DNA of 64,000 bases from NCBI RefSeq assembly GCF_024223415.1, contig NZ_CP100500.1; one strand, given 5' to 3'. Position 1 is the stretch's first letter; every line of letters begins with the position of its first letter. The position numbers are program-made. Source of the stretch: Escherichia coli. GTDB taxonomy: Bacteria; Pseudomonadota; Gammaproteobacteria; Enterobacterales; Enterobacteriaceae. This document shows positions 50,301 to 53,300 of this stretch, one piece after another.

Positions 50301-53300
50301 ACCGCGATCAAATCCTCGACATTTTGTTTCTGCCATTCAATCGAAACGCTGCGATTCAACCGCTATACCTGCTATCTTCAACTTTAGGACAATAATGCAA
50401 CGTCTTATTAACATATTTAACGTTGAATGTTACTGTTGTCGTCAAGATGGCATAAGACCTGCATGAAAGAGCCTGCAAACACACAACACAATACACAACA
50501 TAAAAAAGCCATTTTCACTTGAGGGTTATGTATGAAGAAGTCGATTCTCGCTCTGTCTTTGTTAGTCGGTCTCTCCGCAGCGGCTTCCAGCTATGCGGCG
50601 CTACCGGAGACGGTACGTATCGGAACCGATACCACCTATGCGCCGTTCTCGTCGAAAGATGCTAAAGGTGATTTTGTTGGCTTTGATATCGATCTCGGTA
50701 ACGAGATGTGCAAACGGATGCAGGTGAAATGTACCTGGGTTGCCAGTGACTTTGACGCGCTGATCCCCTCACTGAAAGCGAAAAAAATCGACGCCATTAT
50801 TTCGTCGCTTTCCATTACCGATAAACGTCAGCAGGAGATTGCCTTCTCCGACAAGCTGTACGCCGCAGATTCTCGTTTGATTGCCGCCAAAGGTTCGCCG
50901 ATTCAGCCAACGCTGGATTCACTGAAAGGTAAACATGTGGGTGTGCTGCAGGGATCAACCCAGGAAGCTTACGCTAACGAGACCTGGCGTAGCAAAGGCG
51001 TGGATGTGGTGGCCTATGCCAACCAGGATTTGGTCTATTCCGATCTGGCTGCAGGACGTCTGGATGCCGCACTGCAGGATGAAGTGGCGGCCAGCGAAGG
51101 TTTCCTCAAGCAACCCGCCGGTAAAGAGTTCGCTTTTGCTGGCTCATCAGTGAAAGACAAAAAATACTTCGGTGATGGCACCGGTGTAGGGCTACGTAAA
51201 GATGATACTGAACTGACGGCTGCGTTTAATAAGGCGCTTGGAGAGCTGCGTCAGGACGGCACCTACGACAAGATGGCGAAAAAGTATTTCGACTTTAATG
51301 TCTACGGTGACTGATACGTCGCAGGGAAGCTGTGCCTGATGGAATGATCATCATGGTGCACGCCAGGTTTGTTGCACTATCGTGGTGCATTGAAATGCAT
51401 ACTTAAGCATTTTTAATGAAAAATAATACGTCTAACGGGGCGGGATATTTTGCCTTGATGGTCAATTTTATGGCACGATAAGTGTAACAAACCTGTAAAT
51501 ATTCCCTATAAAAAGACTGTCAGTTGAGGACATTATGAAAAAACTGGTGCTATCGCTCTCTCTGGTTCTGGCCTTCTCCAGCGCAACTGCGGCATTTGCT
51601 GCGATTCCGCAAAACATCCGCATCGGTACCGACCCGACCTATGCGCCATTTGAATCAAAAAATTCACAAGGCGAACTGGTTGGCTTCGATATCGATCTGG
51701 CAAAGGAATTATGCAAACGCATCAATACGCAATGTACGTTTGTCGAAAATCCGCTGGATGCGTTAATCCCGTCCTTAAAAGCGAAGAAGATTGACGCCAT
51801 CATGTCATCGCTTTCCATTACGGAAAAACGTCAGCAAGAAATAGCCTTCACCGACAAACTGTACGCTGCCGATTCTCGTCTGGTGGTGGCGAAAAATTCT
51901 GACATTCAGCCGACAGTCGAGTCGCTGAAAGGCAAACGGGTAGGCGTATTGCAGGGCACCACCCAGGAGACGTTCGGTAATGAACATTGGGCACCAAAAG
52001 GCATTGAAATCGTCTCGTATCAGGGGCAGGACAACATTTATTCTGACCTGACTGCCGGACGTATTGATGCCGCGTTCCAGGATGAGGTCGCTGCCAGCGA
52101 AGGTTTCCTCAAACAACCTGTCGGTAAAGATTACAAATTCGGTGGCCCGTCTGTTAAAGATGAAAAACTGTTTGGCGTAGGGACCGGCATGGGCCTGCGT
52201 AAAGAAGATAACGAACTGCGCGAGGCACTGAACAAAGCCTTTGCTGAAATGCGCGCTGACGGTACTTACGAGAAATTAGCGAAAAAGTACTTCGATTTTG
52301 ATGTTTATGGTGGCTAATCACCATCGGTGAAAGAAAGCCCGCTCCCTTCGGGTAACCGGAGGGAGACAAGAGGCGGTAATTCACCACACACGACAGGACA
52401 GGCTGCATGTTGTATGGGTTTTCAGGTGTTATTTTACAGGGTGCGCTCGTCACGCTGGAGCTGGCTATCAGCTCTGTAGTGCTCGCTGTAACCATCGGTT
52501 TAATTGGCGCTGGCGGTAAGCTCTCGCAAAATCGGCTTTCGGGGCTGATTTTCGAAGGGTACACCACGCTGATTCGTGGCGTGCCGGACTTAGTGTTGAT
52601 GCTGCTGATTTTCTACGGTTTGCAGATTGCGCTAAACACGGTGACGGAGGCGATGGGCGTCGGGCAGATTGATATCGATCCGATGGTCGCTGGTATTATC
52701 ACTCTCGGTTTTATCTACGGTGCTTATTTTACCGAAACGTTCCGTGGTGCTTTTATGGCAGTGCCGAAAGGACATATAGAGGCGGCGACGGCGTTCGGTT
52801 TTACTCGTGGGCAAGTGTTTCTGCGGATCATGTTTCCGGCGATGATGCGTTACGCCCTGCCAGGCATTGGCAACAACTGGCAGGTGATCCTCAAATCTAC
52901 CGCACTGGTTTCGTTACTCGGCCTGGAAGATGTGGTCAAAGCCACGCAGCTGGCAGGCAAAAGTACCTGGGAACCGTTCTATTTCGCCATCGTCTGTGGC
53001 GTGATTTACCTGGTTTTCACCACCGTTTCCAATGGTGTGCTGCTGTTCCTTGAGCGCCGCTACTCCGTGGGTGTGAAGAGGGCTGACCTGTGATCGAAAT
53101 CTTACATGAATACTGGAAACCGCTGCTGTGGACCGACGGTTATCGCTTTACTGGTGTGGCGATCACTCTGTGGCTGCTTATTTTGTCGGTAGTGATAGGC
53201 GGAGTCCTGGCGCTGTTTCTGGCGATTGGTCGTGTCTCCAGTAATAAATACATCCAGTTTCCAATCTGGTTATTTACCTATATTTTTCGCGGTACGCCGC

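What the first reader, a model, noticed from the sequence alone, without database searches (positions are those of the whole stretch)
50448..50463. Sigma-54-like -24/-12 element upstream of argT
TGGCAT-N5-CTGCA resembles the RpoN promoter consensus TGGCAC-N5-TTGCA and sits about 70 bp upstream of the argT start, consistent with nitrogen-regulated expression of the basic amino acid binding protein.
Basis: partly seen in the sequence, partly recalled or inferred. Interest (0 to 1): 0.2.

Follow-up and report, generated by a model that had tools for sequence, protein, structure and literature searches.

The report
Known sigma-54 promoter of argT

Summary
The window is the E. coli cvpA-purF-ubiX-argT-hisJQMP region. 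TGGCATAAGACCTGCA is present at 50448-50463 on the + strand, 69 nt before the argT ATG at 50532.

The pattern alone is not beyond chance: 35 of 100 shuffles of the 64 kb give at least one match. Other evidence shows it is real.
- The identical 17-mer is a published sigma-54 ChIP-seq site in E. coli, with a predicted start 58 nt before argT.
- It is also a sigma-54 ChIP-chip site in Salmonella, where argT is 3.5-fold higher in wild type than in delta-rpoN.
- It is a gSELEX RpoN site, and NtrC ChIP gives a weak peak there.
- In 81 of 81 Enterobacteriaceae argT upstream regions, TGGCA and TGC are invariant at fixed spacing. The spacer shows 16 variants and the flanks drift.

Best explanation: argTp, a -24/-12 promoter activated by NtrC under nitrogen limitation.

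Added details:
- NtrC-like dyads sit at -221 and -190 in most genera but are degenerate in Escherichia.
- A published overlapping sigma-70 promoter is repressed by bound sigma-54 holoenzyme.
- The 5' UTR carries the known GcvB target.

Verdict: already known, low interest.

The parts
50448..50463 (+). Sigma-54 -24/-12 core promoter of argT (argTp). GG is at 50449-50450 and GC at 50461-50462.
   Evidence: Sequence read. The identical motif is a sigma-54 ChIP-seq site in E. coli and a ChIP-chip site in Salmonella. TGGCA and TGC are invariant in 81 of 81 species with fixed spacing.
50474..50474 (+). Predicted sigma-54 transcription start, 58 nt before the ATG. This is inferred, not mapped here.
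   Evidence: Bonocora et al. place the TSS 19 bp downstream of the motif centre and give a distance of 58 to argT. Motif centre 50455 + 19 = 50474, and 50532 - 50474 = 58.
50474..50531 (+). argT 5' UTR. It has a C/A-rich stretch at 50474-50499 complementary to the GcvB R1 region, and a Shine-Dalgarno GAGGG at about 50521-50525.
   Evidence: RNAduplex of GcvB against the UTR gives -63 kcal/mol, against -36.5 +/- 4.5 for shuffles; the core pairs GcvB nt ~63-91. argT is listed as a GcvB R1 target, verified in Salmonella and conserved in E. coli.
50277..50293 (+). Dyad TGCCCTGTTTCAGGGCA centred at -190. It is a degenerate NtrC-type site (4 of 12 half-site mismatches) and also the stem-loop of a likely ubiX terminator.
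   Evidence: This position holds NtrC-like dyads in other genera, e.g. Klebsiella TGCGCTGCGGTGGTGCA. The RNA hairpin folds at -15.1 kcal/mol, z = -3.2. It is the 5' end of the argTp fragment cloned in PMC7045595.
50247..50263 (+). Position equivalent to the -221 NtrC dyad of other genera. In E. coli it lies in the last ubiX codons and keeps only the half-site GGCGCA.
   Evidence: Dyads with 3 or fewer mismatches sit at -220 to -222 in many genera, e.g. Enterobacter TGCACCTGCAGGGTGCA with 0 mismatches (alignment). E. coli shows 5 mismatches by inspection.
50296..50326 (.). Most conserved block of the spacer (TTGCAACCGCGATCAAATCCTCGACATTTTG, -178 to -148). Its function is unassigned.
   Evidence: CGATCA.ATCC is invariant across 81 species. 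No consensus match was found for NtrC or IHF.
50397..50421 (.). Conserved block TGCAACGTCTTATTAACATATTTAA (-77 to -53). It contains the -35-like TTAACA at 50408-50413. It may be a bending or IHF-type site, or the -35 of the sigma-70 promoter.
   Evidence: Conservation. The IHF consensus scan with up to 1 mismatch gave no hit here, so the assignment is inference only.
50408..50436 (+). Candidate overlapping sigma-70 promoter: TTAACA, 17-nt spacer, TACTGT, with TG at 50428-50429. The start would be near 50442.
   Evidence: Schaefer et al. place the sigma-54 motif at +6 to +22 of a sigma-70 argT start and report argT at 23% with rpoN versus vector. The hexamers were assigned by me from the sequence. 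The -10 is not conserved outside Escherichia, and the tool's sigma-70 scan called nothing.
50532..51314 (+). argT coding sequence: lysine/arginine/ornithine periplasmic binding protein, 260 aa.
   Evidence: ORF. RefSeq annotation of identical DNA.

Best explanation
The element is argTp, the sigma-54 (RpoN) dependent promoter of argT. RNA polymerase carrying sigma-54 binds the GG at 50449-50450 and the GC at 50461-50462 and forms a stable closed complex. Under nitrogen limitation, phosphorylated NtrC contacts this complex by DNA looping and uses ATP to open it. Transcription then starts near 50474 and gives an mRNA with a 58-nt leader. This raises synthesis of the Lys/Arg/Orn binding protein so the cell can scavenge nitrogen. 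Sigma-54 occupancy and conservation are shown. RpoN-dependent expression is shown in Salmonella. NtrC association and induction on nitrogen starvation are shown in E. coli. The exact start site and the NtrC sites used in E. coli are inferred. When NtrC is inactive, the bound holoenzyme also lowers transcription from an overlapping sigma-70 promoter.
For: The exact sequence is at the stated coordinates, oriented towards argT. DNA identical to the window's ubiX-argT spacer is annotated as upstream of argT in RefSeq E. coli genomes, and a match is present in 5425 of 5426 complete genomes.

Published binding and expression data:
- Sigma-54 ChIP-seq peak OS22 has the motif ATGGCATAAGACCTGCA, 58 nt from the predicted TSS to argT.
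- The Salmonella ChIP-chip site is TGGCATAAGACCTGCATG, with a 3.5-fold WT/delta-rpoN ratio, and argT is listed as a known NtrC operon.
- An in-vitro gSELEX RpoN holoenzyme peak lies in the argT/ubiX spacer.
- An NtrC ChIP-seq peak (5.4-fold) overlaps the promoter, and all NtrC-bound units were up-regulated on nitrogen starvation.
- A review-level statement of sigma-54/NtrC control appears.
- The fragment 50277-50473 drives strong gfp expression as 'argTp'.

My comparison of 81 Enterobacteriaceae:
- TGGCA and TGC are 100% conserved at fixed spacing.
- There are 16 spacer variants, and the flanks are about 59% conserved.
- Only 15% of spacer columns are invariant.
- NtrC-like dyads cluster at -221 and -190: 0.86 per locus against 0.10 in shuffles.
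Against: - The bare motif is not statistically unusual in 64 kb.
- At the time of PMC4591121, EcoCyc classed the E. coli promoter as predicted rather than experimentally confirmed.
- No mapped sigma-54 TSS was found in the papers I could read.
- In E. coli no NtrC consensus site with 3 or fewer mismatches exists in the ubiX-argT spacer.
- The NtrC ChIP signal at argT is weak (5.4-fold, marked with an asterisk whose meaning I did not find), against 23.7-fold at hisJ.
- In nitrogen-replete cells rpoN lowers argT RNA to 23%. The element is therefore not simply an activator site.
- The original Salmonella work (Schmitz et al. 1988) and the Barrios 1999 compilation could not be read.
Confidence: 0.93

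Rival explanations
1. In E. coli the site works mainly as a parking place. A closed sigma-54 holoenzyme complex sits just downstream of a sigma-70 start near 50442 and blocks it, so the element is chiefly a repressor site and NtrC activation is minor.
For: Schaefer et al. place the motif at +6 to +22 of a sigma-70 argT promoter. argT RNA is 23% with rpoN relative to vector, and sigma-54 reduces sigma-70 transcription in vitro by 10-60%. E. coli lacks good upstream NtrC sites and has a weak NtrC ChIP signal. A plausible TTAACA-N17-TACTGT promoter is present.
Against: argT is up-regulated on nitrogen starvation with RNAP and NtrC bound. It is RpoN-activated in Salmonella, which has the identical core. 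The sigma-70 -10 is not conserved outside Escherichia, whereas the sigma-54 core is invariant in 81 species. The tool's sigma-70 scan found nothing in the region. The two roles are compatible, so this is an added function rather than a replacement.
Confidence: 0.08
2. Chance resemblance with no sigma-54 function. argT would be transcribed only by sigma-70 polymerase.
For: The pattern frequency equals chance expectation in the window.
Against: Sigma-54 occupancy is shown in vivo in two species and in vitro. The eight core bases are invariant in 81 species while only 15% of spacer columns are invariant. A naive joint chance is 3e-7, though the species are related, so this overstates the case.
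Confidence: 0.01
3. The conservation reflects another ligand, either a different DNA-binding protein or an RNA-level element of a longer sigma-70 leader, rather than sigma-54.
For: A sigma-70 transcript starting near 50442 would contain the motif as RNA. Several neighbouring conserved blocks have no assigned factor.
Against: The conservation pattern (invariant GG and GC blocks, fixed 10-bp register, free spacer) is the sigma-54 signature. There is no Rfam match in 50000-51700. Direct sigma-54 binding data exist.
Confidence: 0.02

Closest known systems
Salmonella Typhimurium argT promoter (argTr; STM2355)
   Same: The 18-nt core TGGCATAAGACCTGCATG is identical, as are the gene and the assignment to NtrC/sigma-54. 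Two other Salmonella enterica subspecies in my set (L012, L039) carry the same core 81-83 nt before the ATG.
   Different: The flanks differ, including the sigma-70 -10 region proposed for E. coli. RpoN-dependent expression was measured in Salmonella, not re-measured here for E. coli.
E. coli glnAp2 (archetypal NtrC-activated sigma-54 promoter)
   Same: It has a -24/-12 core and activation by NtrC-P from paired upstream dyads about 30 bp apart. From my own knowledge the glnAp2 sites lie at about -140 and -108. At argT the comparative dyads lie at -221 and -190, which is 31 bp apart.
   Different: The argT dyads lie further upstream and are degenerate in E. coli itself. NtrC ChIP enrichment is 5.4-fold at argT against 71-fold at glnALG.
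glmY/glmZ overlapping sigma-70 and sigma-54 promoters
   Same: Competition between the two holoenzymes at overlapping promoters is described for glmY/glmZ in Salmonella (text) and proposed for argT.
   Different: At glmY the promoters fully overlap and share a start. At argT the sigma-54 core lies downstream (+6 to +22) of the sigma-70 start.
Other validated E. coli sigma-54 cores with the same deviations (ddpX ATGGCATGAGATCTGCA, astC CTGGCACGAACCCTGCA)
   Same: T at -21 (TGGCAT) and C at -15 (CTGCA) both occur in ChIP-confirmed promoters, so the two departures from TGGCAC-N5-TTGCA are normal variation.
   Different: The argT PSSM score of 9.46 is at the low end of the listed sites, which range from about 9 to 14.

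Membership tests
Sigma-54 (RpoN) -24/-12 promoter | GG and GC doublets exactly 10 bp apart within TGGCAC-N5-TTGCW | tested here: met
   TGGCATAAGACCTGCA at 50448-50463 matches 9 of 11 specified bases and both doublets are intact.
Sigma-54 (RpoN) -24/-12 promoter | Intergenic location, oriented towards a downstream gene at a workable distance | tested here: met
   It lies in the ubiX-argT spacer on the same strand as argT. The predicted leader is 58 nt.
Sigma-54 (RpoN) -24/-12 promoter | Occupancy by sigma-54 holoenzyme | tested here: met
   Tested by literature look-up, not by my own experiment. Sources are ChIP-seq OS22 in E. coli, ChIP-chip in Salmonella and gSELEX in vitro, all on the identical sequence.
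Sigma-54 (RpoN) -24/-12 promoter | Selective conservation of the -24 and -12 blocks across species | tested here: met
   81 of 81 Enterobacteriaceae keep TGGCA and TGC at fixed spacing. There are 16 spacer variants and the flanks are about 59% conserved.
Sigma-54 (RpoN) -24/-12 promoter | Transcription depends on rpoN and starts about 12 nt after the GC | tested here: inconclusive
   Salmonella shows 3.5-fold WT/delta-rpoN with a constitutive activator. E. coli in replete medium shows the opposite sign, 23%. Induction on nitrogen starvation is reported. No mapped sigma-54 TSS was found in the papers I could access.
NtrC (GlnG) regulon, enhancer-dependent activation | NtrC dyads (TGCACC-N5-GGTGCA) within looping distance of the promoter | tested here: inconclusive
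   Dyads sit at -221 and -190 in 56 of 81 species. In E. coli the same positions have 4-5 of 12 mismatches, and no site with 3 or fewer mismatches exists in the spacer. The nearest strong site is 51373-51389, about 900 bp downstream.
NtrC (GlnG) regulon, enhancer-dependent activation | NtrC association in vivo and induction under nitrogen limitation | tested here: met
   Tested by literature look-up. A NtrC ChIP-seq peak (5.4-fold, P = 0.015) lies at window ~50404-50484, and all NtrC-bound units were up-regulated at N-. The signal is weak.
Sigma-70 promoter overlapping argTp | -35 and -10 hexamers at 16-18 bp spacing with a mapped start | tested here: inconclusive
   TTAACA-N17-TACTGT fits the published +6 to +22 geometry. 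The -10 matches only 3 of 6 bases and is not conserved, and the tool scan called no site.

The most novel reading that the evidence does not exclude
Most Enterobacteriaceae keep a two-dyad NtrC enhancer at -221/-190 of argTp. In Escherichia (and Salmonella and most Citrobacter) this enhancer has decayed, and the -190 dyad survives as the ubiX terminator hairpin. The only strong NtrC site nearby is 51373-51389, in the argT-hisJ spacer about 900 bp downstream of the argT start. In E. coli, argTp might therefore be activated by that downstream site acting as a shared remote enhancer, or only weakly by degenerate sites. The main job of the core would then have shifted towards sigma-70 occlusion.
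Probability: 0.15. Interest if true: 0.35.

Novelty: already known. Interest (0 to 1): 0.06.

Why it matters
It matters little as a discovery. argTp is a documented member of the NtrC/sigma-54 nitrogen-scavenging regulon and has already been used as an engineering part. The check is useful mainly as a positive control: a tool-less reader correctly recognised a real sigma-54 promoter whose bare pattern is statistically indistinguishable from chance. The comparative data add modest detail about the enhancer. The NtrC dyads hold fixed positions across genera but have degenerated in Escherichia.

Tried and rejected
- Pattern statistics: neither the degenerate nor the strict consensus is enriched in the window. 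Significance cannot rest on the motif alone.
- Sigma-70 and terminator scan of 50200-51600: no sigma-70 site was called, and the two terminator-like hits lie elsewhere.
- NtrC consensus scan: nothing with 3 or fewer mismatches in the ubiX-argT spacer.
- IHF consensus scan: no hit between enhancer and promoter. The idea that 50397-50421 is an IHF site stays unsupported.
- ARG-box scan: no hit in either spacer. I therefore do not assign ArgR operator coordinates upstream of hisJ, although hisJQMP is reported to be ArgR-repressed.
- Rfam: no RNA family in 50000-51700.
- Papers not held: Reitzer & Schneider 2001, Barrios 1999 and Zimmer 2000. Schmitz 1988 was not found either. A search for 'argTr/dhuA' returned only irrelevant papers.
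- Nac (ATA-N9-TAT), Cra and LysR-type boxes were looked for by eye in the conserved blocks and did not fit.

Full report
**Locus.** The window carries cvpA (47560-48048), purF (48085-49602), ubiX (49697-50266), argT (50532-51314), hisJ (51535-52317) and hisQMP, all on the + strand. The 268-nt stretch 50267-50534 is 100% identical to many E. coli chromosomes. It is present in 5425 of 5426 complete genomes, with argT annotated under the match. K-12 has the same gene order.

**Observation.** TGGCATAAGACCTGCA is at 50448-50463 on the + strand.
- GG is at 50449-50450 and GC at 50461-50462, which is the canonical register.
- The last base is 69 nt before the argT ATG.
- As a pattern it is not special. 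TGGCAY-N5-YTGCW occurs once, against 0.41 expected, and 35 of 100 shuffles give at least one match.
- The strict consensus with up to 2 mismatches occurs 24 times against 27 expected.

**Published evidence on this exact sequence.**
- Bonocora et al. list sigma-54 ChIP-seq peak OS22 with the motif ATGGCATAAGACCTGCA on the minus strand of K-12, upstream of b2310 argT.
  - The predicted TSS is 19 bp past the motif centre and 58 nt before the gene.
  - EcoCyc flagged the promoter as 'predicted' at that time.
  - In window coordinates the motif centre is 50455 and the TSS is 50474, which is 58 nt before 50532.
- Samuels et al. list TGGCATAAGACCTGCATG for Salmonella STM2355 argT as a sigma-54 ChIP-chip site. 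Expression is 3.5-fold higher in wild type than in delta-rpoN in the presence of a promiscuous activator. They count argT among four experimentally established sigma-54 operons, with NtrC as activator.
- A genomic SELEX study recovered the argT/ubiX spacer with RpoN holoenzyme alone, and also with NtrC added.
- Brown et al. report an NtrC ChIP-seq peak at argT in nitrogen-starved cells (5.4-fold, P = 0.015). It maps to window ~50404-50484. They state that all NtrC-bound units gained RNAP and were up-regulated.
- PMC6640053 summarises argT as sigma-54 and NtrC dependent and not ArgR regulated.
- PMC7045595 uses 'argTp' as a sigma-54 part. Its primers define the fragment 50277-50473.

**Comparative test done here.** A scan of one genome per species returned 80 argT loci from Escherichia, Salmonella, Citrobacter, Enterobacter, Klebsiella, Raoultella, Kosakonia, Pluralibacter, Franconibacter and others.
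- Every one has TGGCA-N7-TGC 66-105 nt before the ATG.
- In the 81-sequence alignment the five bases TGGCA and the three bases TGC are 100% conserved.
- The intervening positions show 16 variants, for example TGGCACAAAAACTGCA and TGGCATGGTAAGTGCA.
- The 24 columns on either side average 59% conservation.
- Only 41 of 265 spacer columns are invariant.
- Overall identity to the window falls to 50%.
- Invariant blocks in a fixed register with a free spacer is the expected signature of selection on a -24/-12 promoter.

**Enhancer.** The window has no NtrC consensus site (TGCACC-N4-TGGTGCA, up to 3 mismatches) in the ubiX-argT spacer. Across the 81 loci, however, NtrC-like dyads pile up at two fixed positions.
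- The positions are -221 and -190 relative to the predicted start, 31 bp apart.
- They occur in 56 loci, at 0.86 sites per locus against 0.10 in shuffles.
- Examples are Enterobacter TGCACCTGCAGGGTGCA at -221, and Klebsiella CGCACTATAGTGGTGCA at -220 with TGCGCTGCGGTGGTGCA at -190.
- Escherichia, Salmonella and most Citrobacter fall below the threshold at both positions.
- In E. coli the -190 position is TGCCCTGTTTCAGGGCA (50277-50293).
  - It forms a -15.1 kcal/mol hairpin followed by UUUUG, so it is probably the ubiX terminator.
  - It is also exactly where the authors of PMC7045595 began their argTp fragment. Their other forward primers begin at NtrC-type dyads.
- The -221 position lies in the last ubiX codons.
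- This degeneracy fits the weak NtrC ChIP signal at argT.
- Which sites NtrC uses in E. coli is therefore inferred, not shown.

**Overlapping sigma-70 promoter.** Schaefer et al. place the sigma-54 motif at +6 to +22 of a sigma-70 argT start.
- They find argT RNA at 23% when rpoN is supplied, relative to vector.
- They show 10-60% inhibition of sigma-70 initiation by sigma-54 in vitro.
- This geometry puts the start near 50442 and fits TTAACA (50408-50413), a 17-nt spacer and TACTGT (50431-50436) with an upstream TG. I assigned these hexamers myself.
- The -35-like block is invariant across genera but the -10 is not, and the tool scan called no sigma-70 site.
- A closed sigma-54 complex thus also dampens basal transcription. 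The effect of an rpoN deletion depends on nitrogen status.

**Mechanism.** E-sigma-54 binds 50448-50463 as a closed complex (shown by ChIP). NtrC-P activates it under nitrogen limitation (association and induction shown; sites inferred). Transcription starts near 50474 (inferred). The 58-nt leader begins with UGCAAACACACAACACAAUACACAAC, which pairs with the G/U-rich R1 region of GcvB. The duplex energy is -63 kcal/mol, against -36.5 +/- 4.5 for shuffles. This is consistent with argT being a listed GcvB target. No Rfam family matches the region.

**Comparison and verdict.** This is the known argTp/argTr promoter. Its two departures from the textbook consensus (T at -21, C at -15) are shared with other ChIP-confirmed promoters such as ddpX and astC. 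It works like glnAp2, but with more distant and, in E. coli, degenerate NtrC dyads. It resembles glmY in having competing sigma-70 and sigma-54 polymerases.
- Novelty: already known.
- Interest: low.
- The only mildly new points are the fixed -221/-190 dyad positions across genera, their decay in Escherichia, and the possibility that the strong NtrC site in the argT-hisJ spacer contributes to argTp.

Noticed in passing
window 51373-51389: The only near-consensus NtrC site in the 64 kb window is TGCACTATCGTGGTGCA (1 mismatch), in the argT-hisJ spacer. It coincides with the strong (23.7-fold) NtrC ChIP-seq peak assigned to hisJQMP. An NtrC-like dyad is present in this spacer in most genera.
   Followed up: partly
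window 51471-51486: TGGCACGATAAGTGTA lies 49 nt before the hisJ ATG. The -24-like TGGCACGAT is invariant in 22 genera. The -12 position is a canonical CTGCA/CTGCT in Citrobacter, Franconibacter and others, but GTGTA (no GC) in Escherichia. hisJ is absent from the main-text sigma-54 site lists for E. coli and Salmonella. It may be a decayed or weak sigma-54 promoter for hisJQMP.
   Followed up: partly
window 50474-50499: A C/A-rich leader is complementary to GcvB R1, starting at the predicted +1 of the sigma-54 transcript. argT is a known GcvB target.
   Followed up: yes
window 50275-50300: The hairpin UUGCCCUG-UUU-CAGGGCAA followed by UUUUG (-15.1 kcal/mol, z = -3.2) is a likely ubiX terminator. 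It overlaps the -190 NtrC-type dyad position.
   Followed up: partly
window 50296-50326: This is the most conserved block of the ubiX-argT spacer. CGATCA.ATCC is invariant in 81 species and includes a GATC. It matches no consensus that I tried.
   Followed up: partly
window 50369-50378 and 50342-50360: There is an invariant CTGCTATCTT block. There is also a moderately conserved dyad CGAAAC-GCTGC-GATTCA, which reads TGAAACGCTGCGGTTCA in some genera and scores as a weak NtrC-like site at -125. The function of both is unknown.
   Followed up: no
window 51393-51430: A conserved block TGCATA.TTAAGC...ATGCAAAAA lies upstream of hisJ. hisJQMP is reported to be ArgR-repressed, but the ARG-box consensus with up to 3 mismatches gave no hit here.
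   Followed up: partly
window ~47270 (dedD-cvpA spacer): The gSELEX study lists a weaker RpoN holoenzyme peak assigned to cvpA-purF-ubiX. No sigma-54-like motif with 2 or fewer mismatches lies nearby.
   Followed up: no
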